Shown here: positions 1-14,065 of the stretch, piece by piece | How the letters are laid out: each line of letters opens with the position of its first letter | Position numbering within the stretch: position 1 is the first letter of the stretch | NCBI RefSeq assembly: GCF_051307035.1 | Contig: NZ_CP195536.1 | Location: 1,620,001-1,652,000, forward strand | Source of the DNA: Psychrobacter sp. DM4 | GTDB lineage: Bacteria > Pseudomonadota > Gammaproteobacteria > Pseudomonadales > Moraxellaceae | DNA: 32,000 nt | Reading direction: 5' to 3' | Position numbers and translations under genes: made by a program | Notes under the pieces: generated by a model | Database searches by the model: none | Told to the model about the DNA's origin: nothing | Seen by the model: only the letters and a program-made list of their open reading frames with translations

Positions 1-774
1 GAATTACTACCCTCTACGCAACCTACTAAAGCCGATCAGCGCTACATTATTTGCATGAAATGGGGCGATAAGTATGGTGCTGAGTACGTCAATCGCCTCT
101 ATAATATGGTCAGTCGTCACCTCAGTCTAGACTTTCAGATGATATGCTTAACAGACGATAGTACGGGTATCGATTCGGCCGTAGACTGCTATCCTATCCC
201 TGAGCTTGACCTGCCCGCTGGATTGCCCGAGCGCGGCTGGAAAAAACTCACTACATTCAAGCCTGAGCTCTATGATTATAAAGGTGTCGCTTTGTTTTTG
301 GATATTGATATTGTTATCGTCGATAATATCGATGAATTTTTTACCTACAAAGCGGAACATGATGATAGCGTCGTTATCATCCGTGATTGGAAAAAACCAT
401 GGCGCATGGTAGGTAACAGCTCGGTGTATCGATTTAAAATCGGTCAAAACACCTATCCCAATTTGCTAAGCAACTTTGAGCAGAATTTTGCACAAATTAG
501 CTCAGAGGTTCGTCACGAACAAGCTTATCTGTCCAACTACTTACGTGAGCACCATCACCTAGAATACTGGGATAAAGACTGGTGCGTGAGTTTCAAATAT
601 CAGTGTATTGCTCCTATCCCATTTAACTTCATTCGTGCGCCCAAACTCTCTGATAACGCCAAAATTGTCATTTTTCACGGTGAAATCAATCCACCAGATG
701 CTATTGTTGGTGGCAGTGGCAAATGGTATCGTCACGTCAAGCCCAGTCCTTGGTTAAAAGAATACTGGCAATAA
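1..774 (+). CDS. GT-A-like (DxD) glycosyltransferase, 'KWGxKYG' family; probably 5'-truncated by the window edge
   Basis: The ORF track gives 55..774, but the frame stays open back to nt 1 (..ADQRYIICMKWGDKYG). That stretch aligns with NNIKQIICIKWGTKYG of the paralog at 9116..9967, so the true start lies upstream of 55 and may be outside the window. A DxD-like motif LFLDIDIVIVD is present. Function is inferred from this motif and the glycan-locus context. Confidence 0.6.
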   Translation, partial: ELLPSTQPTKADQRYIICMKWGDKYGAEYVNRLYNMVSRHLSLDFQMICLTDDSTGIDSAVDCYPIPELDLPAGLPERGWKKLTTFKPELYDYKGVALFLDIDIVIVDNIDEFFTYKAEHDDSVVIIRDWKKPWRMVGNSSVYRFKIGQNTYPNLLSNFEQNFAQISSEVRHEQAYLSNYLREHHHLEYWDKDWCVSFKYQCIAPIPFNFIRAPKLSDNAKIVIFHGEINPPDAIVGGSGKWYRHVKPSPWLKEYWQ

Positions 775-790
775 CGCTTTAGGAAATAAC

Positions 791-1792
791 ATGACCCAGC
801 ATAGTGAACCGCCAATAGATATTGTCATTGCTTGGGTAGACGGTGATGATACTGTCCTAAAGCAAAAAAGAGCGCAGTATCAAGGATTATCAAATACTGC
901 CTCTAGTGCTGTCAGCTCAACACGTTTTGCTAGTAATAACGAAATATATTACAACGTTGCTTCCATTATCAAGTACGTACCGTTCTGTCGTCATATATAT
1001 ATCGTCACGGACGGACAGCGACCTAAATTTGTCGATGAATTTGCGGAACAAGGTATTTGTGAAAAAGATAAAATACGTATTATAGATCATACAGAAATTT
1101 TCACAGGGTTTGAGCAGTATTTACCGACTTTTAATACCCGCTCCATTGAAACAATGTTATGGAATATCAAGGATTTATCTGATTACTTTATCTATATGAA
1201 TGACGATTTTTTCTTTAATCAATCTGTGACCTTAGATGAATTTTTAGATGAAGATAACATTATTATTCATGGTCATTGGCGAAAAAATGCAGTACTCCAA
1301 GCCAAACTCAAATATCGTAGTACTATGTCTAGAGTGACTAAGACCCCTATGCAACCAAAGCATACAACTGCCCAGATGCTAAGTGCTCAGATCCTTGGCA
1401 TGACTCAGTTCTTTGAGATTCATCATTATCCTCATATTGTGGATAAGAATATCTTGAAAAATTACTTATTAGATAACCCTCAGTTGTTAAATAAGCAAAT
1501 TAAGTATAAGTTTCGAGATGTGGCTCAAGTCAATCCTATTACGCTTATGAATCACTTAAAAATTCAAGCTAGCGAGGCTATGCTCAGACCTGATACCCCT
1601 ATTAACTATCTTAAGAACAAAAATAGCGTTATCGGTTTTTTAATAGATTTGAATAACGACTCAATCAAATATGGTTGTATACAAAGTCTAGATTTATATG
1701 ATCTAGACGCTTATAACAAAATTAGCGACGCTATGACTCAAAAATTTTTAGAGTATCTACCATCGTCATTGCTGCTAGATGATAATAAATAG
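791..1792 (+). CDS. Stealth-family sugar-1-phosphate (hexose/HexNAc-1-phosphoryl) transferase
   Basis: 333 aa. It matches the Stealth conserved regions as I recall them. CR1-like: IDIVIAWVDGDD. CR2-like: TRFASNNEIYYNVASIIKYVPFCRHIYIVTDGQRPKFV, then LPTFNTRSIETMLWNIKDLSDYFIYMNDDFFF. It starts 16 nt after the upstream gene on the same strand. Confidence 0.75.
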   Translation: MTQHSEPPIDIVIAWVDGDDTVLKQKRAQYQGLSNTASSAVSSTRFASNNEIYYNVASIIKYVPFCRHIYIVTDGQRPKFVDEFAEQGICEKDKIRIIDHTEIFTGFEQYLPTFNTRSIETMLWNIKDLSDYFIYMNDDFFFNQSVTLDEFLDEDNIIIHGHWRKNAVLQAKLKYRSTMSRVTKTPMQPKHTTAQMLSAQILGMTQFFEIHHYPHIVDKNILKNYLLDNPQLLNKQIKYKFRDVAQVNPITLMNHLKIQASEAMLRPDTPINYLKNKNSVIGFLIDLNNDSIKYGCIQSLDLYDLDAYNKISDAMTQKFLEYLPSSLLLDDNK

Positions 1793-1904
1793 TTCTTAAC
1801 GTTAATTATCGAACCATAAATTTATAAAATTGATTCTAAAATTATAGCTATCACTTACCACATTGATCATTGATTTAAATTTTAACTTATCAAGGAATAA
1901 CATT

Positions 1905-3125
1905 ATGGTTTTATTTTTAATATCGAACCATACTGGTTTTAATACGGGTCGAGGGGGCCATTACTACTCTTTGAGACATATGGCTGAAGCTATGGGTAAG
2001 CACAAAGAAGTTGTTACTATAATATTAGGCTCTGAGATGCCAATAGCATTAATAGGTATGGAGAAAGCTTACTATGTACCTACAAGTCTCCATCTACAAA
2101 AAAAAGGTATGAAAAAAGCAGTACGTTTATTAGAAAAGCTGAATTTTTTATCTAGAATATCAGTAGTCCATGCATACGATGCTAAATCTGTATATATTGG
2201 CGCTTCTATTGCAAAAAAAATAGGCGTAAGGTTTTTATTAACTAAGTGTGGCGGTCGAGTACTCAAAAGAAAGTATCCGAAAGTAAACTCTTTGATTGTT
2301 TTTCATGAGATGGATTATCACTATTATAATAGTCATAAAGATCACTATAAAGATGTCTACTTGATTCCAAATAGAGTTAAAGATACAACTTATAATAAGA
2401 ATAGAATACAGCAATTAGAAGATATTAGAGAAAATAGTAGTCTTAATATTATAAAAATAGGAAGGATAGGTAAATATTATTATAAAACATTAACTGATAC
2501 CATTACGTTTTGTTCTGAATTATCAAAATCTAATTATCAAATAAAACTTACATTTATTGGCTATGAAGAGTCATCAGATATTATAAGAAAACTGAATGCT
2601 TTGGCACAGGATTTGAAGGTCGACCTTACTATTTATTCTGATAGTACTTATACTTCAAACGCCTCTGAGCTAATTTGGGCTTGTGATGCTGCTGTTGGGA
2701 CAGGAAGGGGCGCGATGGAGGCGTTATCAGCCGGAAAAATACTACTTTTCCCTGTTGCCAACTTTGATTATCCATGTCTACTTAATGAGGAAACCGCTAC
2801 GTATGCGATGCGTGATAATTTCTCAGAGCGCGTAATGTTACCCCAGGAGCTAAGTCAATATTGTGACCCACACTATGTTATGAATTTATTATTAGATAAT
2901 ACATATGTAGAAAATCTAAAGAAATTTGGTCTTGGCTTGTTTGATTCTAATTTCAATGTAGATGTTGGAGCTAAAAAAGTTATTAATATATATAACGAGA
3001 ATCATACTCTAAACTCTATTACTAGATGGTCCTTATTTAAATTGAGATTGCACGATGCTGTAACTTTTTATAAATTAAAATTAAAGACTTTTAGACATAG
3101 CTTAAGGGCCTCATTAAAAAAGTAA
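1905..3125 (+). CDS. GT-B-fold (GT4-like) glycosyltransferase, very AT-rich
   Basis: The ORF track gives 1863..3125 with a TTG start. The ATG at 1905 is preceded by AAGGA with 7-nt spacing, so it is preferred. N-terminal HTGFNTGRGGHYYS and C-terminal GTGRGAMEALSAGKILLFP resemble the GT-B nucleotide-sugar-binding motif. It is soluble (no TM segments), so it is not a polymerase or flippase. Confidence 0.55.
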   Translation: MVLFLISNHTGFNTGRGGHYYSLRHMAEAMGKHKEVVTIILGSEMPIALIGMEKAYYVPTSLHLQKKGMKKAVRLLEKLNFLSRISVVHAYDAKSVYIGASIAKKIGVRFLLTKCGGRVLKRKYPKVNSLIVFHEMDYHYYNSHKDHYKDVYLIPNRVKDTTYNKNRIQQLEDIRENSSLNIIKIGRIGKYYYKTLTDTITFCSELSKSNYQIKLTFIGYEESSDIIRKLNALAQDLKVDLTIYSDSTYTSNASELIWACDAAVGTGRGAMEALSAGKILLFPVANFDYPCLLNEETATYAMRDNFSERVMLPQELSQYCDPHYVMNLLLDNTYVENLKKFGLGLFDSNFNVDVGAKKVINIYNENHTLNSITRWSLFKLRLHDAVTFYKLKLKTFRHSLRASLKK

Positions 3126-3294
3126 TGTTATCATTAATTTAAAATGAGCGACTATCAAAACTCAGACTAAAAATTTCTGATAAAAAACTTAAGTTTATTT
3201 CAGCACATCTTTACCCTTTATTTAAAATAATATAGGGCGTGTCTTCATTTCTAAAATGGTGATAAAAATGAGATAAATTGCCGTCAAACAAGAA

Positions 3295-3333
3295 AAATAG
3301 CGCAGATAATATCAGGATATTAACCCGCTATTT
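3295..3333 (-). terminator. Compound hairpin between the convergent glycan operons; likely intrinsic terminator of the ugd operon
   Basis: The outer stem pairs AAATAGCG (3295-3302) with CGCTATTT (3326-3333). The inner stem pairs TAATATC (3307-3313) with GATATTA (3316-3322). On the minus strand the hairpin is followed by TTTTTCTTGTTT. It lies 66 nt downstream of the ugd stop. Confidence 0.5.
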
Positions 3334-3398
3334 AGCAAGATTTAGCCCATTGAGATGACTATCGAGTGAATTGAAGACACGACCTAGTATACATATGC

Positions 3399-4565
3399 TC
3401 AATCACTACCGAATAGATCTCGAGTATAAACCTTGTCAATCACATCCTCTAACTCAGACGCTAAACGGTTAGTCAAAATGACATCAGCTTGTTGTTTAAA
3501 TGAAGTTAAATTGCTAATGACTCGTGATCCAAAGAAATGTTCATCTTCTAGTACGGGCTCATAAACGATAACTTCAACACCTTTGGCCTTGATACGTTTC
3601 ATTACGCCCTGCATCGCACTGGCTCTAAAATTGTCTGAACCTGACTTCATAATTAATCGATAAATACCTACAACTTTCGGGCGTCGCTTCAATACAGCAT
3701 CAGCAATAAAATCTTTACGCGTTCGATTAGCATCTACAATCGCTCGAATCATATTATTAGGTACATCTTGATAATTAGCCAATAGCTGTTTGGTATCTTT
3801 TGGCAAGCAATAACCACCATAACCAAAAGATGGATTATTATAGTGAGCACCAATACGAGGATCCAACCCTACTCCCTCAATGATTTGCCGACTATCTAAC
3901 GCTAATGATTCAGCATAACTATCTAACTCATTAAAATACGCAACGCGCATGGCCAAATAGGTATTAGAAAACAACTTGACAGCTTCGGCTTCTGTACTTT
4001 CAGTAAACAGTACAGGTACATCTCTTTTGATTGCACCCTGCAAAAGTAATTCTGCAAACTGCCGTGCTCTAGTTGAACGTTCGCCAACAATAATGCGTGA
4101 AGGATACAAGTTATCGTATAGTGCTTTGCCCTCACGTAAAAATTCAGGCGAAAAAATAAGATTAGAAACATTAAAGCGCTTTTTTGCCTCCTCCGTAAAT
4201 CCTACTGGAACCGTTGATTTAATCACTATTGTTGCACTAGGATTCACTGCGACAACATCGCAAATAACATCTTCAACACTTTTTGTATTGAAATAATTAG
4301 TGTTAGGGTCATAGTTGGTAGGCGTTGCTATAATGACGAAGTCAGCATTAGTGTAAGCTTCTGTAGAATCCAAGGTAGCTTTAAAATTAAGCATACTTTG
4401 ATTCAAAAACTCTTGTATTTCTGTATCTTCGATAGGTGATTGTCCGTCATTTAGCAATGCTATTTTCTCTGGAACAATATCGACTGCGACAACCTCGTTA
4501 TGCTGGGCTAATAGCATAGCATTAGATAATCCGACATATCCTATTCCTGCTACAGCAATTTTCAT
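3399..4565 (-). CDS. ugd: UDP-glucose 6-dehydrogenase
   Basis: N-terminal Rossmann motif [20 protein letters not shown]. The catalytic region [10 protein letters not shown]-like is [14 protein letters not shown]. Length is about 388 aa. The ATG at 4565 has AGGA 8 nt upstream; the alternative ATG at 4574 would overlap the upstream stop. Confidence 0.9.
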
Positions 4566-4567
4566 CT

Positions 4568-5548
4568 TTAACATCCTGTTTTGTAGAACTTACGATACCA
4601 GCCAACAAAATGCCCGACACCTTGTTTTATGGTCACAGCCGGACGATGACCAGTTTTTTTGAATAAAGACTCAGTATCAGCCCAAGTACGTGGTACATCA
4701 CCCGGCTGCATGGGTAGATAATTATAGATTGCTTTTTTGCCTGTTGCCTGCTCAATAGCATGAACAAACTCCATGAGTGCAACAGGGCTACCGTTGCCGA
4801 TGTTGTATACAGCGTGAGAATCTTGACTCGCATCAGACTTAGGTGGCATATCGAGTAGACGTACAATACCTTCGACGATATCATCTATATAAGTAAAGTC
4901 GCGTTGCATCTCACCATTATTGTAAATATCAATCGGCGACCCTTCAAAAATAGCTTTAGTAAACTTGAACAGAGCCATGTCTGGACGTCCCCAAGGACCA
5001 TATACAGTAAAAAAACGCAATCCGGTGGCAGGTAGATTATAAAGATGAGAGTAGGCATGCGTCATTAATTCATTAGCCTTTTTAGTTGCTGCATACAGAC
5101 TAATGGGATTGTCTACTCTATCTGTTACTGAAAAAGGGGTTTTTGCGTTCTCACCGTATACTGAGCTTGAAGAGGCATAGAGTAAATGTTTGACCCTACT
5201 GTTTCGGCAACCCTCCAGTATATTTAAATGCCCCACTAAGTTTGAATCAGCATAAGCATGAGGGTTGTCTAACGAATAACGTACGCCTGCCTGAGCTGCC
5301 AGATGAATTACAGCATCAAAATTTTCATCTTCAAATAAGTTTGTTACGTCATTGCGGTTGGCAATATCTAACTTGATAAAACGTATATTTGGCACATCAG
5401 CTAGATCTTTTAGCCGTGCAAGTTTAAGGGACACATCATAGTAGTCGTTTAAATTATCAATGCCGACTAAGTCATGATCATAGCTTGATAAACATTTTGC
5501 GACCGCGTGACCAATAAAACCTGCCATACCAGTGATTAAGATCTTCAT
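4568..5548 (-). CDS. NAD-dependent UDP-glucuronate 4-epimerase (UDP-GlcA to UDP-GalA), SDR family
   Basis: [20 protein letters not shown] (GxxGxxG), [13 protein letters not shown], and YxxxK as YAATKKANE. The 326-aa length and adjacency to ugd are typical of Cap1J/LpsL/Gla-type epimerases. Substrate specificity is inferred, not shown. Confidence 0.8.
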
Positions 5549-5647
5549 ACTGACTCTGCTTTTTGATAAAAATTGACTTTTAAGTAATAATAGAACTATG
5601 CTTTGCTACAGGCAAAAAGATTTTAATGTATTGGCGCTTAACAACGT

Positions 5648-6592
5648 TTAAATATCCTGAATTTTTCCGTAAGAGTTGACAAACTTCGCTTCGACAACCA
5701 TCTGATATCCTGTTCTACGATGAACCGTTTCTCTTACTGTATTAATTAAAGATAGAATATCCTTCGCCTGAGCACTACCGTTATTTACGATAAAATTGGC
5801 GTGAAGATAAGAGACTTGAGCACCCCCTCTACTTAAGCCCTTTAACCCGCAGTCTTCAATCACTTTACCTGGCGGTCCATAAGTTGCATACATATCAGGA
5901 TTGCTCACGAACACAGAGCCGCAGTTTGGTAGTTTACGTGGGAATTTTTTTCGACGCGACTGTAAAATCTCTAACATCTCTTGGCGAATAGCACTCTTAG
6001 TTTGATTATCATTGAGCTTAAGTCCAACCTCTATGATCACCTCATCTCTTTCTTGAAAGATAGAACGGCGATAAGAAAACTTACACTCCTCTTTGGTATA
6101 ACGTTTTACGTTACCTGCTACGTCTACTGTATCAACATAGTTGACTACACTACCAATACCTTGTCTTTGACTACCGCCATTCATGACAACAAGGCCGCCA
6201 AGGGTACCCGGTATGCCGCAAATGTGTTCAATACCAGATAAGCTGGCTTGCATCGCTGTTTTAGCTAGGCTAGGCGCCCATATACCGGGCTCGGCGGTAA
6301 TCTCTGAGTCATGCACGTGTACTTTTGAGAAGTTAGACCCTATCTGTACAACGACGCCTTGTAAGCCTTCATCTGCAAACAATAAATTTGTCGTACTGCC
6401 TATGATTACTGAGGGTACGTTGTTTTGATAGATCCACTGTCGAACTTTGATTAATTCTTCTTTATTCCTAGGACGAATAATGACCTCGGCTACTCCTCCT
6501 ACTCGCCACTGACTGAACGTAGATAAACACGTTTTAAAAGTAATAATGTCAGGGAAAAGAGCCTTAAGCTCACTCATTCGTAACGCATTCAT
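5648..6592 (-). CDS. MurB-like UDP-N-acetylenolpyruvoylglucosamine reductase paralog (short, type-II architecture)
   Basis: 314 aa. It has an FAD-binding PCMH-type N-terminal half (WRVGGVAEVIIRP, IIGSTTNLLF, GIPGTLGG). Its MurB C-terminal motifs are FSYRRS, CGSVFVSNP and HANFIVNNGSAQAKD. It starts 6 nt after the MurA-like stop. Confidence 0.8.
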   Translation of the reverse strand: MNALRMSELKALFPDIITFKTCLSTFSQWRVGGVAEVIIRPRNKEELIKVRQWIYQNNVPSVIIGSTTNLLFADEGLQGVVVQIGSNFSKVHVHDSEITAEPGIWAPSLAKTAMQASLSGIEHICGIPGTLGGLVVMNGGSQRQGIGSVVNYVDTVDVAGNVKRYTKEECKFSYRRSIFQERDEVIIEVGLKLNDNQTKSAIRQEMLEILQSRRKKFPRKLPNCGSVFVSNPDMYATYGPPGKVIEDCGLKGLSRGGAQVSYLHANFIVNNGSAQAKDILSLINTVRETVHRRTGYQMVVEAKFVNSYGKIQDI

Positions 6593-6598
6593 TGATAT

Positions 6599-7861
6599 CT
6601 ATCCAATACTGCCACTACAGTTTGCACCTAAAGCCTTTAGCTTAGGGATAAGATCAACATAACCACGTCCGATTTGCCAAGCATCAGTAATCACCGTTTC
6701 ATCTTCAGCAGCTAAACCGCATAAGGTAAGTGCGATGCCAGCACGCAGATCTAATGCTTTAACTTGAGCACCTTTTAAGCCACCGCTATTGCCTATAACT
6801 TTAAGCATATCACCAGATATTTCGTACTGTAATCCCATACGAGCCATCTCTTTAGCGTATCCATAGCGACCAGGAAAACGCAAATCCACTATTCGTGATT
6901 CTCCTTGAGCTTGAGCAGCCCAAGCCGCCATAATAGGTTGTACATCTGAGTTAATACCTGGATGTGGTCCAGTACTTATCTCAAGCGGGTAGCAACATCC
7001 GCCTCGAACAATAAGAGAGTTTTCGCCTGTATAAAGTTTTGCGCCTGCAGCTTTAAGATGGGTTAGAACAACTTCTAAATCAGCGTAAGGAAAATCATAA
7101 ATCTCTATATCACCTTTTGTGATAACTGCTGCTGCTAACCACGTGATCGCTTCCATATTATCAGCGATGACTTTATGTTCAACACCCTTTAGATGATCGA
7201 CCCCAGTAATTTCGATATGTTCTTGTCCAAAAACTTTTATACGGGCACCCATACTATTTAGCATCGTGATTAAATCGAGTATCTCTGGACGAATATGCGG
7301 GTTCCAAATACGTGTAACGCCTCTCGCTAATGAACCTGCTATTATCGCGTTTTCTGTAGCTCCTGTTGAACGTATCGGTAAATATATATCTGCACCTATC
7401 AGCCCAGCCTTTGCTTCTGCGCATAAATAGTCATCCTCCTCCCATACGTTTGCTCCTAACTTCTCAAGTAGCATCACATGTAGATCATACTTGCGCTCAC
7501 CAAGTTTACATCCTCCTGGCAGAGGCACTTTTGCTTGTCCAAATCGAGCTACTAACGCACCCAATATAAGTAAAGTATTCCTAATTGAACGACCATCCCA
7601 AACTAAATTTGTTTTTAGATTAGTATTCTCTTTAATGACTATGGTGTCATTGTTTACAAGTACTGTCTCTTTCCCTAAAGAATGAAGCATATCAACATGT
7701 ACTTGTGCATCTAGTAACTGCGAAGGATAGTTTTTTAGGATAATTTTTTCTTCAGATAAAATACTAGCTGCTAATAGACGTAATGCTGAGTTTTTAGCGC
7801 CTGCTAGTGCCACCTCTCCTTGCAGTTTACTTTTTGAAATGGTTAGCACATTATTAGTCAT
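6599..7861 (-). CDS. MurA-like enolpyruvyl (1-carboxyvinyl) transferase paralog
   Basis: 420 aa, enolpyruvyl transferase fold. It keeps the Lys motif LAGAKNSAL, the catalytic Cys loop LPGGCKLGERKYDLH, the Asp in GINSDVQP and the Arg in ALDLRAG. Elsewhere it is strongly diverged from E. coli MurA as I recall it. Confidence 0.8.
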   Translation of the reverse strand: MTNNVLTISKSKLQGEVALAGAKNSALRLLAASILSEEKIILKNYPSQLLDAQVHVDMLHSLGKETVLVNNDTIVIKENTNLKTNLVWDGRSIRNTLLILGALVARFGQAKVPLPGGCKLGERKYDLHVMLLEKLGANVWEEDDYLCAEAKAGLIGADIYLPIRSTGATENAIIAGSLARGVTRIWNPHIRPEILDLITMLNSMGARIKVFGQEHIEITGVDHLKGVEHKVIADNMEAITWLAAAVITKGDIEIYDFPYADLEVVLTHLKAAGAKLYTGENSLIVRGGCCYPLEISTGPHPGINSDVQPIMAAWAAQAQGESRIVDLRFPGRYGYAKEMARMGLQYEISGDMLKVIGNSGGLKGAQVKALDLRAGIALTLCGLAAEDETVITDAWQIGRGYVDLIPKLKALGANCSGSIG

Positions 7862-7961
7862 TCAAAATCTCGTTTTGTCTATACAATTAGACTTTATTAT
7901 TAAATAAAAGGTTTTATAACCAAATTGAGGCATTAGAAGCAGTTTAAAATGAATAGTTCAA

Positions 7962-9056
7962 TTATGATGCTAGATAATCAACATACTGCTGAGCAATATT
8001 CTTAGGCAAGAACTTCTCATCAAAATCAACCTTGAATCTTTGCGGATCGTTCATCAATTCTGTCATTTTTATAGCTAACGCTTCTACATCGTCTACAGGC
8101 ACAAGACTATCGCTAGGCAACATCTCACTAGGCCCTGATGGACAGTTCGTACTAACTACCGGAACCTGTAGAGCCAACGCTTCTGGTATGACTCGCACAA
8201 AACCTTCAAACCGTGAAGATAATACCAGTCCTCTGGCATGCTTCATGTACGGATAAGGATTTTTATTGAAACCTAAGAAGATAATCTTGTCTTCTAATCC
8301 TAAATCTTTGACCAATTCTTTAGTTTGTTCTAGTAGCTTACCCTTACCTAGTAGCACTAGAGGATAAGCCATAGACGATTTGGCATAAGCTTTTATCAAC
8401 ACATCATGCGCCTTTTGATACGTGAGACTACCGACATGCAATATGTATTGATTCGGTTGAAGCACTTTATGAGGCGTACTATATGACTCATGACTCATCT
8501 CTTCAATTAACTGCTTATCAAAAGCATTATAAATTGTCGTACTGATGATATCTGGTCCTAGTCTTGCTTGTAGATCACTTTCCACACCTTTTGAGACACA
8601 AATACAAGGATGTGTCTTGTAGATATGCTGTAGCCTACTAATTTTGTTGTCTAACTTATGACTTTCGGTTAGTTTAAACTTATGAGAGATATCATTTCTA
8701 ATAATGTACATTATATTAGGTAATTTGCTATAAACCATAACCCTATCTGAGGGTTCTAAATTAGATAAAACAATATCTGGCTGTCCAATCTTCTTTGTGA
8801 TGAATTTATCTACAGCACCTGCAAACAATTGATGACGGATGCGCTCACTTGGTATGAGTTTATAAGGTTTAAATTTGAGCATATGATACGATAAATTTGG
8901 ATTTAAATCATACTCTGTAAGAGACTTAAACCTCAAAATATGAACCTCATAACCCAATTCATAAAATCCTTGACCTAAAGTCAGTACTGAACGCTCGGCT
9001 CCGCCCCCCTTTATAGCACTAATAATAAGAACGGCGATTTTGGAACCTTGATTCAT
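7962..9056 (-). CDS. GT4-family glycosyltransferase
   Basis: The N-terminus KIAVLIISAIKGGGAERSVL is a typical GT4 start. The C-terminal E-x7-E region is SSRFEGFVRVIPEALALQVPVVSTNCPSGPSE. Confidence 0.8.
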   Translation of the reverse strand: MNQGSKIAVLIISAIKGGGAERSVLTLGQGFYELGYEVHILRFKSLTEYDLNPNLSYHMLKFKPYKLIPSERIRHQLFAGAVDKFITKKIGQPDIVLSNLEPSDRVMVYSKLPNIMYIIRNDISHKFKLTESHKLDNKISRLQHIYKTHPCICVSKGVESDLQARLGPDIISTTIYNAFDKQLIEEMSHESYSTPHKVLQPNQYILHVGSLTYQKAHDVLIKAYAKSSMAYPLVLLGKGKLLEQTKELVKDLGLEDKIIFLGFNKNPYPYMKHARGLVLSSRFEGFVRVIPEALALQVPVVSTNCPSGPSEMLPSDSLVPVDDVEALAIKMTELMNDPQRFKVDFDEKFLPKNIAQQYVDYLAS

Positions 9057-9115
9057 AACTTATAGCCTGCTAGTGGATTGATACTCAATTTGATCATTTT
9101 ATTATTAAGACTCAA

Positions 9116-9967
9116 CTACTCTCTCCAATATGTCTCAATCCAATCCACTGGTAAGATAAAATGACGTAAATGACGTAGTGGCTTTTTAAGATTCTTTGTG
9201 TCTTTGATGTTTTTTAAATGATCTACTGCGTTGTTTGCAGCATCTTTGTTATATTTGCCTTCGATAGCATGCGTTGGATACAAGTCACCTGGGAATATGA
9301 CAAGGCGCGCGCCTTTTGGTATCTTAGGCGTTTTAAAATAATTTAGCGGAAACGGCTGACGGCATTTGCGTCTAAAGTGCGCAACCCATTTTTTGGGGAA
9401 CAGTTTGACGCCGCCGGGCGCATTACGGGTGACAAAACGCTGCTCAAAACGATATTTGTCAGCGATGCCTTGCGGATCGGCTTTGAATTTTTCTTGTAGT
9501 GACACCAACTGCCCGACTTGAAACCTAAAGCAGGATGTCTGTCCTAAACGCTCTAAGGGGTTGCTTGGATTGTACGATAGTATGATGTCATCAGCCTTTC
9601 CATATTCAAAGAAAGGATCGAGACTATCGACGATGATCACATCTAAATCGACAAATAATACCGTGCCCGTTAGATCACCTAACGTTTCGCCCCACAAACG
9701 CGACTTTGGCCACTTGCCCAACGTATTGGTAGGCATAGTCACATCGAGTGGTGGCAACTCTTGGCATTCAATCTCAGAACGTACACCAGTGGTGTCATCG
9801 GTAAAACAAACAAAGCGAAATGGCGGCGTAATATTACGAGAGACCATACCGTATAATTTGTTGGCATAATCAGCGCCGTATTTGGTGCCCCATTTAATAC
9901 AGATGATCTGCTTGATGTTGTTGTCTTTAGCTTTGGCTTTTTTGAACATAAAGGAGCTCACTGTCAT
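9116..9967 (-). CDS. GT-A-like (DxD) glycosyltransferase, paralog of the gene at 1..774
   Basis: IKWGTKYGADYANKLYGMVSR.., FTDDTTG and LFVDLDVIIVD align along the whole length with ORF 1..774. The start is uncertain (ATG at 9967 or the internal MFKKAKAK). Confidence 0.65.
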   Translation of the reverse strand: MTVSSFMFKKAKAKDNNIKQIICIKWGTKYGADYANKLYGMVSRNITPPFRFVCFTDDTTGVRSEIECQELPPLDVTMPTNTLGKWPKSRLWGETLGDLTGTVLFVDLDVIIVDSLDPFFEYGKADDIILSYNPSNPLERLGQTSCFRFQVGQLVSLQEKFKADPQGIADKYRFEQRFVTRNAPGGVKLFPKKWVAHFRRKCRQPFPLNYFKTPKIPKGARLVIFPGDLYPTHAIEGKYNKDAANNAVDHLKNIKDTKNLKKPLRHLRHFILPVDWIETYWRE

Positions 9968-10006
9968 CGTATGAGTAAATATGCCAAGTATATTAACACA
10001 AAAAAA

Positions 10007-10030
10007 AGACTGAACAATTATGTTCAGCCT
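10007..10030 (-). terminator. Intrinsic terminator after ilvE (bidirectional shape)
   Basis: CTGAACA (10010-10016) and TGTTCAG (10021-10027) form the stem with loop ATTA. A T8-9 run follows on the minus strand and CCTTTTT on the plus strand. Confidence 0.6.
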
Positions 10031-10048
10031 TTTTGAGCAAATTTACAA

Positions 10049-10978
10049 TTAATCAATAAAATCTAACCAATCCATGTATTGCTCACTACGACCATGCACG
10101 ACATCGAAGTACAAAGTTTGAAGCTTCTCTGTAATTTCGCCGCGACCACCGTTACCAATAGTGCGATCATCATATTCACGAATGGGCGTAACCTCAGCTG
10201 CCGTACCCGTCATAAAGATCTCATCGGCTAAGTAGAACTCATCGCGAGTAATACGGCGTTCTGTGACTTTGATGTCTAAGTCTTTGCAGAACTGCATGAT
10301 AGTACGGCGCGTAATCCCATCCAATGCCCCACCTGCCAAATCTGGCGTATGAAGCTCACCGTTTTTGACTAAGAATAAATTCTCACCTGACCCTTGGCAT
10401 ACGTAGCCTTGTGAGTCCATCATGATCGCCTCATCATAGCCATTACGGGTCACTTCACGGTTTGCCATGATTGAGACCGGATAATTACTCGACGCTTTGG
10501 CCTTGCACATCGTGACGTTGGGCAGATGATGAGTATAAGAAGACGTTTTGACACGAATACCATTTTGGATACCCTCTTCACCCAAATAGGCGCCCCAATG
10601 CCACGCGGCAACCATAGCATTGACGCTATTGGTGTGGGCTGAGAGTCCCAATTTTTCAGCGCCAACCCAAATTAGCGGACGAATATAAGCTTCGGCTAGT
10701 TTGTTTTGTTTAACGACATCTTTATGCGCTTGTTCAAGCGTGGCTTGATCAAAGGGCACTTCTAACTGAAAAATCTTTGCTGACCCTAACAGGCGTTCGG
10801 TATGATCTTTTAGACGAAATACAGCAGTGCGCTTGTCATCGGTCTGATACGCTCGGACTCCTTCAAATACTGCGATACCATAATGCATACTATGTGTCAG
10901 CACATGAACTTTTGCATCGGGCTGATCAATTATCTCGCCATTCATCCAAAGTTTGCCGTCTTGGGTTGCCATGTTCAT
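10049..10978 (-). CDS. ilvE: Branched-chain amino acid aminotransferase
   Basis: 309 aa. WMNGEIIDQPDAKVHVLTHSMHYGIAVFEGVRAY aligns with the E. coli IlvE N-terminus. It shows PLP fold-type IV features and the canonical length. Confidence 0.93.
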   Translation of the reverse strand: MNMATQDGKLWMNGEIIDQPDAKVHVLTHSMHYGIAVFEGVRAYQTDDKRTAVFRLKDHTERLLGSAKIFQLEVPFDQATLEQAHKDVVKQNKLAEAYIRPLIWVGAEKLGLSAHTNSVNAMVAAWHWGAYLGEEGIQNGIRVKTSSYTHHLPNVTMCKAKASSNYPVSIMANREVTRNGYDEAIMMDSQGYVCQGSGENLFLVKNGELHTPDLAGGALDGITRRTIMQFCKDLDIKVTERRITRDEFYLADEIFMTGTAAEVTPIREYDDRTIGNGGRGEITEKLQTLYFDVVHGRSEQYMDWLDFID

Positions 10979-11158: not shown

Positions 11159-14065
11159 TTATTTAGTATCTATTGGCGTCACGCCCATCAAGTGCTGCCA
11201 CTGTGCCTGAACCAGTCGCCGTGTTTCAACCCACAAGGATTCATCCACTAAGGAGGACTGCTCAGCTAAAGCAAGCTGGTGCGTCGCGGCTCGTATACGT
11301 AAATAAGCATCGGTTAGATCCTGACAAACCTCCTGCTTCCATATTCCCAATTTAGCTACTTCTTCAAAGATACGAACATTGTCGCTCCACTTGGTTAAGC
11401 TTGGGTACTCATGAGAATATGCCAGTACGGCGAACTGCGCCAAGAACTCGATATCGACAATGCCGCCTGCATCTTGTTTGAGATGAAATTTGCCCTCTCG
11501 TTGCTGGTTTGAGCTGGTGCCGAGATGCTTTTGCATCTTTAAACGCATGCTCGTCACCTCAACCCTTACCTCATCAAGCGTACGCGGTAATGACAAAGCA
11601 GAGCGGCGTATATCACAAAAGCGCGCTGTGACGATCTTGTCGCCGCAGATAGCACGCGAGCGTACAAGTGCTTGATGCTCCCAAGCCCAGGCCTTACCGA
11701 GCTGGTAAGTCTCAAAAGCATGACTAGATACGATCATCATTCCTGCATTACCAGAGGGCCGCAGACGCATATCAATCTCATAAGCGCGTCCATCACGAGT
11801 CTGAGTATTTAGATAAGTCATGAGCTTTTGCACAAGCCTTGCGGCAAATTTCATTCCGCTCACTGACTTCTCACCCGTCGTCATACCCGCCTCTTTTATC
11901 TTGTGCAAAAACACTAAGTCCAAATCTGATGAGTAAGACAACTCAAGTCCGCCAAGCTTGCCATAGCCAATGATAGCAAAGCCGCAATCGGCTTCCGTAA
12001 CAGGGTCGCCATTAGTCGATATAGGATAGCCATAGCGCTTGACAATCTCAGCAAAAGCACGCTCCAGAGCAGCCTCTAGTACGACCTCGGCAATATAAGT
12101 CAGTGAGTCTGAGACTTTCATGATCGGACGTTCAGCCAGCACATCGCTTGCCGCTACTGCTAGTATTTGATTCTTTTTGAATAGACGTAGCGCACTAAGC
12201 AGCTCTTCTTCATCGCCAGGCTCTACTCGCAGTAAGTGCTGACGCAAAATATCACGCAGCTCGATCTTGTCAGGTAGATGGCGATAACGCTGCTGAAGAA
12301 AGGTGTCGAGTAGTACAGGATAGCGTGCCAACTCATTGGCAATCCAAGGGCTCGCTGAGAGCATGGGAATCAGCTCAACCGTCGCATTGGGGTTTTCTGC
12401 GATCATCACTAAATAGATAGAACGACGACAAATTGCTTCAAGCAAGGTAATGAGTCGCGGTAAGGCCGTATTAGCCAGTTGCTGCTGCTGCTGGTGTGCG
12501 AGCAAAGCATGTACGATAACAGGGTACGCCTCATCTAGGCGCGTCCTAGCCTCATCGCTCAAGCTTGCCACCATTTTAGACTGCCAGAACTGATCAAGTT
12601 GCGCGCGGCTGTCTTCAGTAAGTACTGTATCTAATTTAGCGATTTGTTCATTAAGATCAGCGGGCTCTACGTCTTCATCGTCTTGGGTGGGCATCTGTCG
12701 CTCAGTTACCATACGCTCAAACGGTACATTTATCGTATGTCTATGTTGATTAAGCGTCTTGGTTAACTCGTTCCAATTCTCAAACCCTAAAGTTGTTGCC
12801 AAGTTTAGACGCCAGAATGGGTCTTGTGGTAAGCGCTGGGTTTGTTGATCGTTAATCGCTTGAATACCATGCTCTAATCGGCGCAAAAAACGATATGCGG
12901 CTTGGAGCTGCTCGTAGGTAGTTGGCTCAAAATATTCAAAATGATACAGCTCCCTCATTGCCTCCAAGCACGATTTGACCTGTAACTCAGGGTGACGTCC
13001 GCCATAGATCAGCTGAAATGCTTGTACAATGAACTCGATATCACGAATACCGCCGGCGCCAAGCTTGATATTATCTAAGTCCTCACGCTGCGCCACTTGG
13101 TTTTGAATCAGTGACTTCATCTCTCTGAGCGCTGAAAAGGCACTATAATCGACGTAATAGCGAAATACAAAAGGTTTGATTAAATCTTGCAAGCCATCAT
13201 AAAACGGCTCGGCCACTTGCCCGACTACTCTCGCCTTTAACCAAGCGAATCGCTCCCAAGCCCTGCCATGATTGGTAAAATACTTTTGTAAGGCGGAGAG
13301 ATGAATAGCCAAATCACTACCATCGCCCCAAGGTCGCAGACGCATATCTACTCGAAATACAAACCCATCGGCAGTATTATTATCGAGCAATTTTATAATG
13401 CCTTGGCCAAGGCGATTCATAAAGCGTTTGTTATCGATACTACGCGTACCTTTTGCTTTGTCACCGTCTGTCTCACCGCGCGCCCAGTGAACGAATATCA
13501 GATCAATATCACTTGATAAATTTAGCTCTTGCGCGCCAAGTTTGCCCATCGCCATAATTGCCATATCATCAAATTGTATATCGCCCTGTCCATTGACAAA
13601 GGTAGGTCGACCATACTGGGCCACCAGATGCGTATAGGTATATTCTTTGGCAAACATGATACAACCATCAGCGAATTCGGAGAGCTCATCGGTCAGCTGT
13701 TCAAGGGCGATCACTCCTAGCGCATCTTGCCAAATCCAGCGCATCATAAGGGAGGTACGCAGATGACGCAGACCGCTCATCACTTGCGTCTCATCACCCA
13801 GCTGATAGTTATCGTCTAGCGTATAATCTTGAATCAAATCATCAATCTGCTGGCGAGTTAAAGTGCTATCTAGCGGATAACTGCGTAAAAAGGTCTGGCA
13901 GGAGTTCGTTCGACTCTCCCACACCTGATAAGCAAATGCACTGGCAGTCTGCAAAACTTTAATCTGCTGAGGTGTTGGCTGATAACTCATAGGATTGGGG
14001 CTATTAGATAACATATTGGATGGTTCTAGTGGCTCCGGTAGCATAGGGATAAAAACTCCTGACAT
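11159..14065 (-). CDS. glnE: Bifunctional glutamine synthetase adenylyltransferase / adenylyl-removing enzyme
   Basis: 968 aa with two nucleotidyltransferase modules (GKLGAQELNLSSDIDLIF and GYGKLGGLELSYSSDLDLVF). Each module is followed by a GlnE-type helical domain. The exact start is uncertain. Confidence 0.92.
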   Translation of the reverse strand: MSGVFIPMLPEPLEPSNMLSNSPNPMSYQPTPQQIKVLQTASAFAYQVWESRTNSCQTFLRSYPLDSTLTRQQIDDLIQDYTLDDNYQLGDETQVMSGLRHLRTSLMMRWIWQDALGVIALEQLTDELSEFADGCIMFAKEYTYTHLVAQYGRPTFVNGQGDIQFDDMAIMAMGKLGAQELNLSSDIDLIFVHWARGETDGDKAKGTRSIDNKRFMNRLGQGIIKLLDNNTADGFVFRVDMRLRPWGDGSDLAIHLSALQKYFTNHGRAWERFAWLKARVVGQVAEPFYDGLQDLIKPFVFRYYVDYSAFSALREMKSLIQNQVAQREDLDNIKLGAGGIRDIEFIVQAFQLIYGGRHPELQVKSCLEAMRELYHFEYFEPTTYEQLQAAYRFLRRLEHGIQAINDQQTQRLPQDPFWRLNLATTLGFENWNELTKTLNQHRHTINVPFERMVTERQMPTQDDEDVEPADLNEQIAKLDTVLTEDSRAQLDQFWQSKMVASLSDEARTRLDEAYPVIVHALLAHQQQQQLANTALPRLITLLEAICRRSIYLVMIAENPNATVELIPMLSASPWIANELARYPVLLDTFLQQRYRHLPDKIELRDILRQHLLRVEPGDEEELLSALRLFKKNQILAVAASDVLAERPIMKVSDSLTYIAEVVLEAALERAFAEIVKRYGYPISTNGDPVTEADCGFAIIGYGKLGGLELSYSSDLDLVFLHKIKEAGMTTGEKSVSGMKFAARLVQKLMTYLNTQTRDGRAYEIDMRLRPSGNAGMMIVSSHAFETYQLGKAWAWEHQALVRSRAICGDKIVTARFCDIRRSALSLPRTLDEVRVEVTSMRLKMQKHLGTSSNQQREGKFHLKQDAGGIVDIEFLAQFAVLAYSHEYPSLTKWSDNVRIFEEVAKLGIWKQEVCQDLTDAYLRIRAATHQLALAEQSSLVDESLWVETRRLVQAQWQHLMGVTPIDTK

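What the first reader, a model, noticed from the sequence alone, without database searches (positions are those of the whole stretch)
5648..7861. Divergent MurA/MurB paralog pair inside a glycosyltransferase locus: predicted muramic-acid-type (lactyl-ether) sugar for LOS, not peptidoglycan
Seen in sequence: two ORFs separated by 6 nt lie in a same-strand run with a GT4 transferase, a UDP-GlcA 4-epimerase and ugd. The MurA-like protein keeps the catalytic residues (GAKN Lys, PGGC Cys loop, Asp in NSDVQ, Arg in DLRAG). Otherwise it is far more diverged from E. coli MurA than housekeeping gammaproteobacterial orthologs normally are; I cannot compute identity here. The MurB-like protein has the short type-II (Firmicute-like) architecture, not the long type-I form used by enteric-type gammaproteobacteria.
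Established knowledge: MurA plus MurB convert UDP-GlcNAc, PEP and NADPH into UDP-MurNAc. Carboxyethyl/lactyl-ether sugars occur in some LPS glycans.
Inference: this pair makes a nucleotide-activated 3-O-lactyl HexNAc (or acts on another UDP-sugar, e.g. a uronic acid derivative supplied by Ugd and the epimerase). That sugar would then be transferred into the outer core. I recall, unverified, a chemical report of N-acetylmuramic acid in the LOS core of a Psychrobacter strain. If this recollection holds, these genes are the obvious but, to my knowledge, unassigned genetic basis.
Basis: partly seen in the sequence, partly recalled or inferred. Interest (0 to 1): 0.72.

Follow-up and report, generated by a model that had tools for sequence, protein, structure and literature searches.

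The report
Accessory MurA/MurB pair for lactyl-sugar glycans
A Psychrobacter strain carries, inside its variable surface-sugar locus, a second and very divergent copy of the two enzymes that normally make the cell-wall sugar muramic acid. The pair belongs to a horizontally spreading family (it even occurs in archaea) that most likely decorates surface glycans with a lactic-acid-ether sugar rather than building peptidoglycan.

Summary
Window 6599-7861 (-) encodes a full-length MurA homologue and 5648-6592 (-) a short type-II MurB homologue, 6 nt apart. They lie in a same-strand run of GT, GT4, murA', murB', UDP-GlcA 4-epimerase and ugd, directly after ilvE (Psychrobacter sp. DM4).

All catalytic residues are kept. 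However, MurA' is only 38% identical to E. coli or Acinetobacter MurA, while those two share 59%. It is 65% identical to a Methanosarcina homologue.

It belongs to a discrete family (55% or more identity within, 44% or less to canonical MurA). The family is spread across many bacterial phyla, plasmids and archaea. It is nearly always followed by MurB' and embedded in polysaccharide clusters. It carries an invariant set of changes in conserved MurA motifs, some at or next to the uridine and diphosphate contacts.

Three other Psychrobacter genomes lack the pair at the same locus. It is therefore accessory, not the housekeeping copy.

Best reading: a cassette of MurA', MurB' and a GT4-like transferase (1863-3125) that makes and installs a UDP-activated lactyl-ether sugar in the LOS outer core.

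Whether the product is MurNAc itself is open. No homologue could be linked to P. arcticus 273-4, the strain with chemically proven MurNAc. The DM4 housekeeping copy could not be fetched.

The parts
6599..7861 (-). murA' : divergent enolpyruvyl (1-carboxyvinyl) transferase, 420 aa, of the accessory glycan-associated MurA-like family
   Evidence: PF00275 full length. Below the TIGR01072 equivalog cut-off. 38% identity to E. coli MurA with K22, C115, D305, R371 and R397 kept. 59-87% identity to 73 loci from many phyla. 100% identity to a Psychrobacter sp. DM4 protein.
5648..6592 (-). murB' : type-II FAD-dependent enolpyruvyl reductase homologue, 314 aa, starting 6 nt after murA'
   Evidence: FAD_binding_4 plus MurB_C; NF010480 scores 286.5 bits against a cut-off of 259. 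Best solved relatives are 3tx1 and 1hsk. R159, S229 and E325 equivalents are invariant in 46 of 46 family members and the Tyr190 loop is absent. In about half of the 61 related loci where gene order could be read (28) it directly follows murA', and in about ten more it lies within a few genes.
1863..3125 (+). U: divergent GT4-like (GT-B, retaining) glycosyltransferase with no Pfam hit. Candidate transferase of the lactyl-ether sugar.
   Evidence: Profile-profile match to the GT4 family: probability 99.4%, E = 4.8e-22. Homologues lie within a few genes downstream of murB' in about 20 related loci. Among Psychrobacter loci it is present in all 4 with the pair and absent in all 3 without.
7962..9056 (-). 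GT4 glycosyltransferase directly upstream of murA'. Alternative candidate transferase.
   Evidence: Glycos_transf_1 and Glyco_transf_4 domains; weak similarity to the PglJ HexNAc transferase. 71% identical in PP-21, which has the pair, against 51% in L080, which lacks it.
4568..5548 (-). UDP-glucuronate 4-epimerase family SDR
   Evidence: Best solved relatives are 5u4q (448 bits) and 6zl6, the B. cereus UDP-GlcA 4-epimerase (180 bits). It overlaps the ugd start by 7 nt.
3399..4574 (-). ugd, UDP-glucose 6-dehydrogenase
   Evidence: NF011631 scores 708.8 bits (cut-off 757); TIGR03026 passes.
9116..9967 (-). First gene of the run after ilvE. Putative glycosyltransferase without a Pfam hit; paralogue of 55-774.
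   Evidence: No family hit. 90% identical orthologues sit next to ilvE in PP-21 and L080.
791..1792 (+). Stealth-family protein (hexose-1-phosphoryl transferase type) of the same locus
   Evidence: Stealth_CR2 E = 1.3e-29; Stealth_CR1. Conserved in PP-21 and L080.
10003..10034 (.). Hairpin terminator that separates ilvE from the glycan genes
   Evidence: 14-bp stem followed by a T-run on the - strand.

Best explanation
murA' and murB' are an accessory, horizontally acquired two-enzyme module. They are not the peptidoglycan genes.

By homology, MurA' transfers the enolpyruvyl group of PEP to a hydroxyl of a UDP-activated sugar, most simply UDP-GlcNAc. MurB' then reduces the enol ether with FAD and NADPH to a 1-carboxyethyl (lactyl) ether.

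The resulting UDP-lactyl-sugar is UDP-MurNAc or a regio-, stereo- or sugar isomer of it. A neighbouring retaining GT4-type transferase attaches it to the lipooligosaccharide outer core. The best candidate is the no-Pfam GT4-like protein at 1863-3125; the alternative is the GT4 at 7962-9056.

Shown: homology, intact catalytic residues, accessory distribution, the cassette-like co-occurrence of A, B and U, and the setting in a glycan locus.

Inferred: the chemistry, the identity of the acceptor sugar, and the LOS outer core as the destination.
For: - Fold and catalytic residues are intact in both proteins.
- The family is discrete. Within it, identity is at least 55% (median 63%); against canonical representatives the median is 36% and the maximum 44%. 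tblastn against plasmids is bimodal, 60-73% then 40% or less. Only two full-length 50%-identity representatives fall in the family.
- DM4 MurA' is 65% identical to a Methanosarcina homologue but 38% to Acinetobacter and E. coli MurA. Housekeeping Acinetobacter and E. coli MurA share 59%.
- Among 73 related loci from Proteobacteria, Bacteroidota, Desulfobacterota, Deinococcota, Chlorobiota, Actinomycetota and Methanosarcina, MurB' is adjacent in most. The neighbours are wzx flippases, an LbH acetyltransferase and GT2, GT4 or U transferases.
- Copies occur on plasmids or chromids, including a minimal cassette of (hypothetical protein), murA', murB' and GT2.
- Three other Psychrobacter genomes have no EPSP_synthase-family gene in the syntenic glnE-ilvE locus. 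PP-21 and L080 differ by presence or absence of the murA'-murB'-U block.
- The housekeeping murA of Moraxellaceae sits in rpoN-raiA-ibaG-murA-hisGDC, a different context.
- The locus has 38.2% GC against 44.6% for its flanks.
- MurNAc does occur in a Psychrobacter LOS core, alpha-linked as a retaining GT would make it.
Against: - No enzyme or glycan data exist for DM4.
- P. arcticus 273-4, the only strain with proven LOS MurNAc, was not found among named family members. MurNAc in LOS may therefore not need this pair.
- The family shows invariant changes in otherwise near-universal MurA motifs: RP[VI]D becomes RK[YF]D, ET[VI]FENRF becomes DLRFPGRY, plus V161R, V163T, E188R and R232N. These argue that the acceptor or regiochemistry may differ from UDP-GlcNAc O3.
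- 'LOS outer core' rests on analogy with the ilvE-flanked OC locus of Acinetobacter, which is from my own knowledge. It also rests on the absence of wzx, wzy and wza-c in the visible part; the left end of the locus lies outside the window.
Confidence: 0.75

Rival explanations
1. The pair makes exactly UDP-MurNAc (3-O-D-lactyl-GlcNAc) as a dedicated, possibly feedback-insensitive, supply for LOS.
For: - All residues for PEP and catalysis are invariant, as are N23, R91, R120, D123, H125, S162 and G164.
- Many loci, including a minimal plasmid cassette, carry no special nucleotide-sugar genes. The substrate should therefore be a ubiquitous UDP-sugar.
- Alpha-MurNAc exists in P. arcticus LOS.
- MurB' passes the MurB equivalog cut-off.
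Against: - Every bacterium already makes UDP-MurNAc.
- P. arcticus shows no named family member.
- About 19 invariant family-specific substitutions fall in conserved MurA motifs. Of these motifs, the literature read here places only Arg120-Pro121 at the uracil ring; that the others line the sugar-nucleotide pocket is from memory.
- MurA' scores below the murA equivalog cut-off.
Confidence: 0.4
2. The pair makes a different lactyl-ether sugar. Possibilities are another position (for example O4), the S-lactyl (iso) configuration, or another UDP-sugar (UDP-GalNAc, UDP-Glc, UDP-GlcNAcA or UDP-GalA), as in the 'glycolactilic acids' of enterobacterial O antigens.
For: - The substitutions are invariant in the family and add net positive charge: V161R, E188R, V327R and E329P, with R232N.
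- MurB' splits into two deeply divergent subtypes while MurA' stays conserved. This could reflect different stereochemistry.
- Lactyl ethers on Rha, Glc and GlcNAc at different positions and in both configurations exist in E. coli O antigens. A nucleotide-level route (wfeP, UDP-GlcLA) is cited for O124.
- UDP-GlcA 4-epimerase orthologues are frequent neighbours.
Against: - At least 20 loci have no dehydrogenase nearby, and L080 keeps ugd and the epimerase without the pair. A uronic acid is therefore not an obligatory substrate.
- N23 and the other sugar-nucleotide contacts typical of UDP-GlcNAc binding are retained.
Confidence: 0.35
3. The pair is a redundant or backup peptidoglycan MurA/MurB, like MurA2/MurZ of Gram-positive bacteria, or is even the only copy in DM4.
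For: PGAP names such genes murA/murB with cell-wall GO terms. The Cys115 equivalent is present, so the enzyme would be a normal fosfomycin target.
Against: - The NF009470 score is 311 against a cut-off of 552.
- The pair is absent from the syntenic locus of three congeners, which must therefore carry murA elsewhere.
- The family occurs in Methanosarcina, which has no murein, and on plasmids.
- It is always embedded in polysaccharide clusters.
- The context differs from ibaG-murA-hisG.
Confidence: 0.03

Closest known systems
Canonical MurA/MurB (UDP-GlcNAc enolpyruvyl transferase EC 2.5.1.7 and UDP-N-acetylenolpyruvoylglucosamine reductase EC 1.3.1.98) of peptidoglycan synthesis
   Same: Same folds and the same catalytic residues: K22, C115, D305, R120, R331, R371 and R397 in MurA; R159, S229 and E325 in MurB. 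The same two-step chemistry is expected.
   Different: - 38% and 24% identity to the E. coli enzymes.
- Below the murA equivalog cut-off.
- Invariant changes in the RPxD, SVG and ETVFENRF motifs, plus E188R and R232N.
- Accessory and horizontally spread, found in glycan clusters, on plasmids and in archaea, and not in the ibaG-murA-hisG context.
Second MurA of low-GC Gram-positive bacteria (MurA2/MurZ)
   Same: A second murA homologue in one genome.
   Different: Those act in peptidoglycan synthesis and match NF009470. This protein scores 311 bits against a cut-off of 552 and has a glycan-locus context. The role of MurA2 is from my own knowledge.
wfeP of E. coli O124 / Shigella dysenteriae type 3, cited as responsible for synthesis of UDP-D-glucolactilic acid
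   Same: It is a precedent for making a lactyl-ether sugar at the nucleotide-sugar level from a gene inside a surface-glycan cluster (PMC7685785).
   Different: The protein family of WfeP is not stated in the text I could read. A distant blastn search with the DM4 pair found nothing in 5,426 E. coli genomes. A protein-level relationship was not testable.
Acinetobacter outer-core (OC) locus between ilvE and aspS
   Same: A variable block of glycosyltransferase and sugar genes directly next to ilvE, without wzx, wzy or wza-c, in a Moraxellaceae genome.
   Different: The aspS boundary was not seen, because the window starts inside the locus. OC-locus status in Psychrobacter is inferred. The Acinetobacter layout is from my own knowledge.
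NikO, the enolpyruvyl-UMP transferase of nikkomycin biosynthesis
   Same: A MurA homologue recruited to a non-peptidoglycan pathway (reference listed).
   Different: It acts on UMP in a secondary-metabolite cluster and has no MurB partner, from my own knowledge. It was not compared here because the paper is not held.
Pyruvyl (ketal) transferases of polysaccharides (CsaB/WcaK type)
   Same: They use PEP to add a three-carbon acid to a glycan sugar (review).
   Different: They have a different fold, give a cyclic ketal rather than an ether, and involve no reduction step.

Membership tests
MurA, UDP-N-acetylglucosamine 1-carboxyvinyltransferase (TIGR01072 equivalog) | Full-length EPSP_synthase-fold protein | tested here: met
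   PF00275 covers residues 10-408, E = 9e-71.
MurA, UDP-N-acetylglucosamine 1-carboxyvinyltransferase (TIGR01072 equivalog) | Score above the curated equivalog cut-off | tested here: not met
   380.9 bits against a cut-off of 392.7. Only the broader subfamily model NF006873 passes.
MurA, UDP-N-acetylglucosamine 1-carboxyvinyltransferase (TIGR01072 equivalog) | Catalytic and PEP-binding residues K22, C115, R120, D305, R331, D369, R371, R397 | tested here: met
   Invariant in 57 of 57 family members, including the window protein.
MurA, UDP-N-acetylglucosamine 1-carboxyvinyltransferase (TIGR01072 equivalog) | Conserved motifs around the substrate site: R-P-[VI]-D-x-H, S-V-G, E-T-[VI]-F-E-N-R-F, and E188/R232 | tested here: not met
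   The family has RK[YF]DLH, STG and DLRFPGRY, with V161R, E188R and R232N, nearly all invariant.
MurA, UDP-N-acetylglucosamine 1-carboxyvinyltransferase (TIGR01072 equivalog) | Housekeeping distribution and context: present in every member of the genus, next to ibaG and hisG in Moraxellaceae | tested here: not met
   Absent from the syntenic locus in 3 other Psychrobacter genomes. The A. baumannii murA context is rpoN-raiA-ibaG-murA-hisGDC. Here the gene lies between two glycosyltransferase genes.
MurA, UDP-N-acetylglucosamine 1-carboxyvinyltransferase (TIGR01072 equivalog) | Activity on UDP-GlcNAc O3; essential for peptidoglycan | not testable with these tools
   Needs an enzyme assay and gene deletion.
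MurB, UDP-N-acetylenolpyruvoylglucosamine reductase (type II) | FAD_binding_4 plus MurB_C domains, and a score above the equivalog cut-off | tested here: met
   NF010480 scores 286.5 bits against 259; TIGR00179 scores 210.6 against 144.5.
MurB, UDP-N-acetylenolpyruvoylglucosamine reductase (type II) | Catalytic Arg159, Ser229 and Glu325 equivalents; absence of the type-I Tyr190 loop | tested here: met
   R, S and E are invariant in 46, 46 and 45 of the 46 family members, and the Tyr190 column is all gaps. Best solved relatives are the type-II enzymes 3tx1 and 1hsk.
MurB, UDP-N-acetylenolpyruvoylglucosamine reductase (type II) | Acts on enolpyruvyl-UDP-GlcNAc for peptidoglycan | not testable with these tools
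   The context argues for a glycan role. The substrate is unknown.
Gram-positive second MurA (NF009470, PRK12830) | Score above the equivalog cut-off | tested here: not met
   311.2 bits against a cut-off of 552.
Moraxellaceae LOS outer-core (OC) locus | Variable glycosyltransferase block adjacent to ilvE, without wzx, wzy or export genes | tested here: met
   ilvE lies at 10049-10978, followed by GT genes. No flippase, polymerase or Wza-c is seen in 1-9967. The content varies between four Psychrobacter genomes.
Moraxellaceae LOS outer-core (OC) locus | Second boundary at aspS; products shown to build the LOS outer core | not tested
   The window begins inside the locus, and attempts to fetch the left flank failed. 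No chemistry exists for DM4.

The most novel reading that the evidence does not exclude
The DM4 pair is a member of an undescribed, cross-domain mobile cassette: MurA' with a re-shaped acceptor pocket, MurB' in two subtypes, and a cognate GT such as the no-Pfam GT4-like 'U'.

In this reading the product is not UDP-MurNAc but another carboxyethyl (lactyl-ether) sugar. The two MurB' subtypes may set R versus S configuration.

If true, this would supply the general genetic basis for 'glycolactilic acid' residues in bacterial LPS, capsules and EPS. It would also explain the puzzling MurA/MurB-like genes in archaea that lack murein.
Probability: 0.35. Interest if true: 0.7.

Novelty: new variant of a known kind. 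Interest (0 to 1): 0.5.

Why it matters
1. Lactyl-ether (carboxyethyl) sugars are widespread in LPS, capsules and exopolysaccharides. In the literature I could search, their genes are essentially unassigned. A conserved, recognisable A-B(-GT) cassette would let such residues be predicted from genomes.

2. These genes are annotated automatically as peptidoglycan murA/murB with cell-wall GO terms, even on plasmids and in archaea. This misleads essential-gene, fosfomycin-target and 'peptidoglycan in archaea' inferences. A 2021 study called the role of archaeal MurA/MurB-like proteins unclear.

3. It gives a concrete, testable candidate for the acidic sugar in Psychrobacter LOS cores.

4. The family-specific signature in conserved MurA motifs is a natural experiment in acceptor specificity of enolpyruvyl transferases.

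Tried and rejected
- **Direct retrieval of the DM4 housekeeping murA/murB.** This was not possible. Homologue searches list only the best 120 hits. No held locus contains a canonical murA or murB.
- **Finding the P. arcticus 273-4 locus through GlnE homologues.** All 120 hits were at 84-87% identity with truncated names, and none had the 273-4 chromosome size.
- **Searching the P. sanguinis subtype.** This also gave no P. arcticus.
- **Fetching the left flank of the locus through the first two ORFs.** Those exact proteins are not on record.
- **Distant blastn of the pair against all complete E. coli genomes.** No match, so nothing can be said about the E. coli lactyl O-antigen genes.
- **Papers that could not be read.** Liu 2008, Knirel 2017 and the NikO paper are not held.
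- **Uronic acid as the obligatory substrate.** Considered and down-weighted.
- **Promoter scan.** Not above shuffled expectation, 29 against 24.3.
- **Structure prediction.** Not used, because the tools return no coordinates for ligand-contact analysis.
Full report
**What is there**

The window is from Psychrobacter sp. DM4: the MurA-like protein matches an NCBI protein of that strain at 100%. On the minus strand, directly after glnE (11159-14065), ilvE (10049-10978) and a strong hairpin terminator (10003-10034), lies a same-strand run of six genes:

| Coordinates | Gene |
|---|---|
| 9116-9967 | no-Pfam putative glycosyltransferase |
| 7962-9056 | GT4 |
| 6599-7861 | murA-like |
| 5648-6592 | murB-like |
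| 4568-5548 | UDP-GlcA 4-epimerase family SDR |
| 3399-4574 | ugd |

On the other strand follow a no-Pfam 420-aa protein 'U' (1863-3125), a Stealth protein (791-1792), and a paralogue of the first GT (55-774). The murA' stop and the murB' start are 6 nt apart. The block has 38.2% GC against 44.6% for the rest of the window.

**Check of the observation**

- MurA' is a full-length EPSP-synthase-fold protein. It passes the broad MurA subfamily model but falls below the murA equivalog cut-off (380.9 against 392.7 bits).
- It is 38% identical to E. coli MurA, with K22, C115, D305, R371 and R397 aligned.
- For scale, the housekeeping MurA of another Moraxellaceae member, A. baumannii, is 59% identical to E. 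coli MurA. It is also only 38% identical to the DM4 protein.
- MurB' passes a MurB equivalog model and is 24% identical to E. coli MurB.
- The best solved relatives of MurB' are the type-II enzymes of Listeria and S. aureus. It lacks the type-I Tyr190 loop while keeping the catalytic Arg, Ser and Glu.

**A discrete, mobile family**

A pattern scan of one genome per species found 73 loci with 59-87% identical proteins. They come from:

- Gamma-, Alpha- and Betaproteobacteria
- Bacteroidota
- Desulfobacterota
- Trueperaceae
- Chlorobium
- a Microbacterium
- two Methanosarcina assemblies

The DM4 protein is 65% identical to the M. spelaei one. Within the family, identity is never below 55% (median 63%). 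Against 126 canonical MurA representatives the median is 36% and the maximum 44%.

A full HMMER scan of 1.8 billion representatives puts only two full-length 50%-identity clusters in the family. A handful of intermediates follow at 41-46%, then the bulk at 300 bits or less.

tblastn against plasmids is bimodal. Seven records fall at 60-73% (Rhizobium chromids, an Agrobacterium plasmid, a Qingshengfaniella plasmid). Everything else is at 40% or less. Such conservation across phyla and domains, far above that of orthologous MurA, indicates horizontal spread.

**Context**

MurB' directly follows MurA' in about half of the 61 loci where gene order could be read (28). In about ten more it lies immediately before MurA' or within a few genes. 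The recurrent neighbours are:

- Wzx-type flippases
- a roughly 165-aa hexapeptide acetyltransferase
- a glycosyltransferase directly downstream, which is either GT2, a GT4-like group, or homologues of the window's protein U

U has no Pfam hit, but its family profile matches GT4 with 99.4% probability. The Methanosarcina locus is likewise a polysaccharide cluster: sugar dehydrogenase, two SDRs, A, B, flippase, U and GT4s. On the Qingshengfaniella plasmid the module is reduced to a hypothetical protein, murA', murB' and GT2, sitting between unrelated catabolic genes.

**Accessory in the genus**

Three further Psychrobacter genomes, whose GlnE is 84-85% identical, were fetched at the syntenic glnE-ilvE locus. 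All carry a variable glycan block, and none has an EPSP-synthase-family gene there.

One of them (L080) shares GTb, a GT4, the epimerase, ugd and Stealth with DM4 and PP-21, but it lacks murA', murB' and U. Strain PP-21 has exactly these three genes as a block.

Across seven Psychrobacter loci, U is present in all four with the pair and absent in all three without. Other strains carry the pair in a capsule-type locus with wza-c and wzx (L004, L044).

Named carriers are scattered: P. submarinus, P. pacificensis, P. piscatorii, P. sanguinis and several unnamed strains.

Congeners that lack the pair must have their essential murA elsewhere. In A. baumannii it lies in rpoN-raiA-ibaG-murA-hisGDC. 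The pair is therefore not the housekeeping set. I could not fetch the DM4 housekeeping genes themselves.

**Mechanism**

All residues for PEP binding and catalysis are invariant in 57 family members. So are several positions near the substrate site: N23, R91, R120, D123, H125, S162 and G164.

Against this, about 19 positions that are strongly conserved in canonical MurA are replaced by a different, nearly invariant residue (E. coli numbering):

| Canonical MurA | Accessory family |
|---|---|
| P121-V122 (Arg120-Pro121 form one face of the uracil sandwich) | K-Y/F |
| V161, V163 | R, T |
| A185-A186, E188 | P-H, R |
| R232-I233 | N-M |
| F302-P303-T304 | I-N-S |
| E325-T-V-F-E-N-R-F | D-L-R-F-P-G-R-Y |

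The substitutions add net positive charge. What these residues contact could not be modelled here.

MurB' keeps its catalytic triad in all 46 members. It splits into two deeply divergent subtypes, at 37% or more against 25-34% identity to DM4.

The simplest model has three steps:

1. MurA' enolpyruvylates a ubiquitous UDP-sugar.
2. MurB' reduces the product to a lactyl ether.
3. The adjacent GT transfers it.

A ubiquitous precursor is favoured because at least 20 loci, and the minimal plasmid cassette, have no sugar dehydrogenase nearby. In addition, ugd and the epimerase persist without the pair in L080.

UDP-GlcNAc is the most parsimonious substrate. However, the altered motifs keep a different regio- or stereochemistry, or a different sugar, fully open.

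**Link to known chemistry and literature**

Casillo et al. 2015 found a terminal alpha-D-MurNAc-(1->3)-L-Rha in the LOS core of P. arcticus 273-4. They called it the first MurNAc in a core oligosaccharide and named no genes. An alpha linkage fits a retaining GT4-type transferase.

However, no P. arcticus protein appears among the named homologues of either Psychrobacter subtype. The DM4 genes therefore cannot be tied to that structure, and housekeeping UDP-MurNAc may suffice there.

In the searchable literature I found no assignment of MurA/MurB paralogues to glycan lactyl ethers. The E. coli O-antigen review lists lactyl groups on Rha, Glc and GlcNAc. It mentions neither MurA nor MurB, but it states that wfeP is responsible for UDP-glucolactilic acid synthesis in O124. 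That is a precedent for a nucleotide-level route whose enzyme family I could not check. A 2021 study noted a few MurA- and MurB-like proteins in archaea without murein and called their role unclear.

**Verdict**

This is an accessory, horizontally acquired MurA'/MurB' module for a lactyl-ether sugar of a surface glycan, probably the LOS outer core. It likely works together with the GT4-like protein at 1863-3125.

It is a new variant of a known kind: the chemistry is the expected one, but the clade, its signature in conserved MurA motifs, its cassette structure and its cross-domain spread are not described in what I could search. The exact product is unknown.

Confidence:

| Reading | Confidence |
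|---|---|
| Glycan role | 0.75 |
| Product is exactly UDP-MurNAc | about 0.4 |
| Peptidoglycan role | about 0.03 |

Noticed in passing
window 1863-3125 (+); homologues in L003, L004, L008, L020, L021, L037, L044, L049, L051-L053, L065, L067, L075 and others: A 420-aa protein with no Pfam or NCBIfam hit founds a family of divergent GT4-like transferases (hhalign 99.4% to GT4). The family travels with the murA'/murB' pair across phyla and appears or disappears with it among Psychrobacter loci.
   Followed up: partly
L043 10001-12158 and L075 7243-9400 (Methanosarcina barkeri MAG, M. spelaei MC-15): Archaea without murein carry the same MurA'/MurB' pair (65% and 44-46% identity to DM4). It sits inside a bacterial-looking polysaccharide cluster with a flippase, a U-type GT and GT4s.
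   Followed up: partly
L078 8419-12220 (Qingshengfaniella alkalisoli plasmid NZ_CP042263.1): A minimal four-gene cassette (177-aa hypothetical protein, murA', murB', GT2) lies between proline and arabinonate catabolism genes. PGAP gives it peptidoglycan and cell-division GO terms, which is probably annotation error propagation.
   Followed up: partly
related loci L006, L010, L016, L019, L022, L024, L030, L040, L041, L062, L064, L069 and others: A Wzx-type flippase and a roughly 165-aa hexapeptide-repeat acetyltransferase recur directly upstream of murA' (order wzx, acetyltransferase, A, B). This suggests the lactyl sugar is often also acetylated, and that the flippase is transferred together with the module. 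DM4 has neither gene.
   Followed up: no
MurB' family alignment: MurB' splits into two deeply divergent subtypes, at 37-68% and 25-34% identity to DM4, while the partner MurA' stays at 59% or more. The column aligned to E. coli N233 is Ser in 26 members and Arg in 12. This might correspond to different lactyl stereochemistry.
   Followed up: no
window 55-774 (+) and 9116-9967 (-): Two paralogous proteins (about 35% identity, shared KWG-KYGA-Y-N-LY motif) have no family hit. They sit at the two ends of the visible glycan block in opposite orientation. Orthologues of both are kept in PP-21.
   Followed up: no
window 791-1792 (+): A Stealth-family (CR1/CR2) protein lies in the locus and is conserved in PP-21 and L080. 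It hints at a phosphodiester-linked sugar in this glycan.
   Followed up: no
representatives P0123-P0133 and about 15-20 of 126 'canonical' representatives: Beyond the tight family there is a wider set of MurA-like clades at 41-46% identity. They share parts of the signature (R-K-[YFH]-D, D-x-R-[FWY], R188, T163). This suggests several uncharacterised enolpyruvyl transferase specificities.
   Followed up: no
window 30111-31913 (-): The AmpG-family muropeptide permease is 600 aa. Its match spans residues 1-556 against a 417-position model, so it carries a large insertion relative to the family model.
   Followed up: no
L080, L081, L082 versus window 1-10000: The region next to glnE-ilvE is a hypervariable glycan locus in Psychrobacter. 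Four genomes have four different gene sets (rml/FdtA type, GtrA/PMT_2 type, GT8 type, murA'/murB' type).
   Followed up: partly
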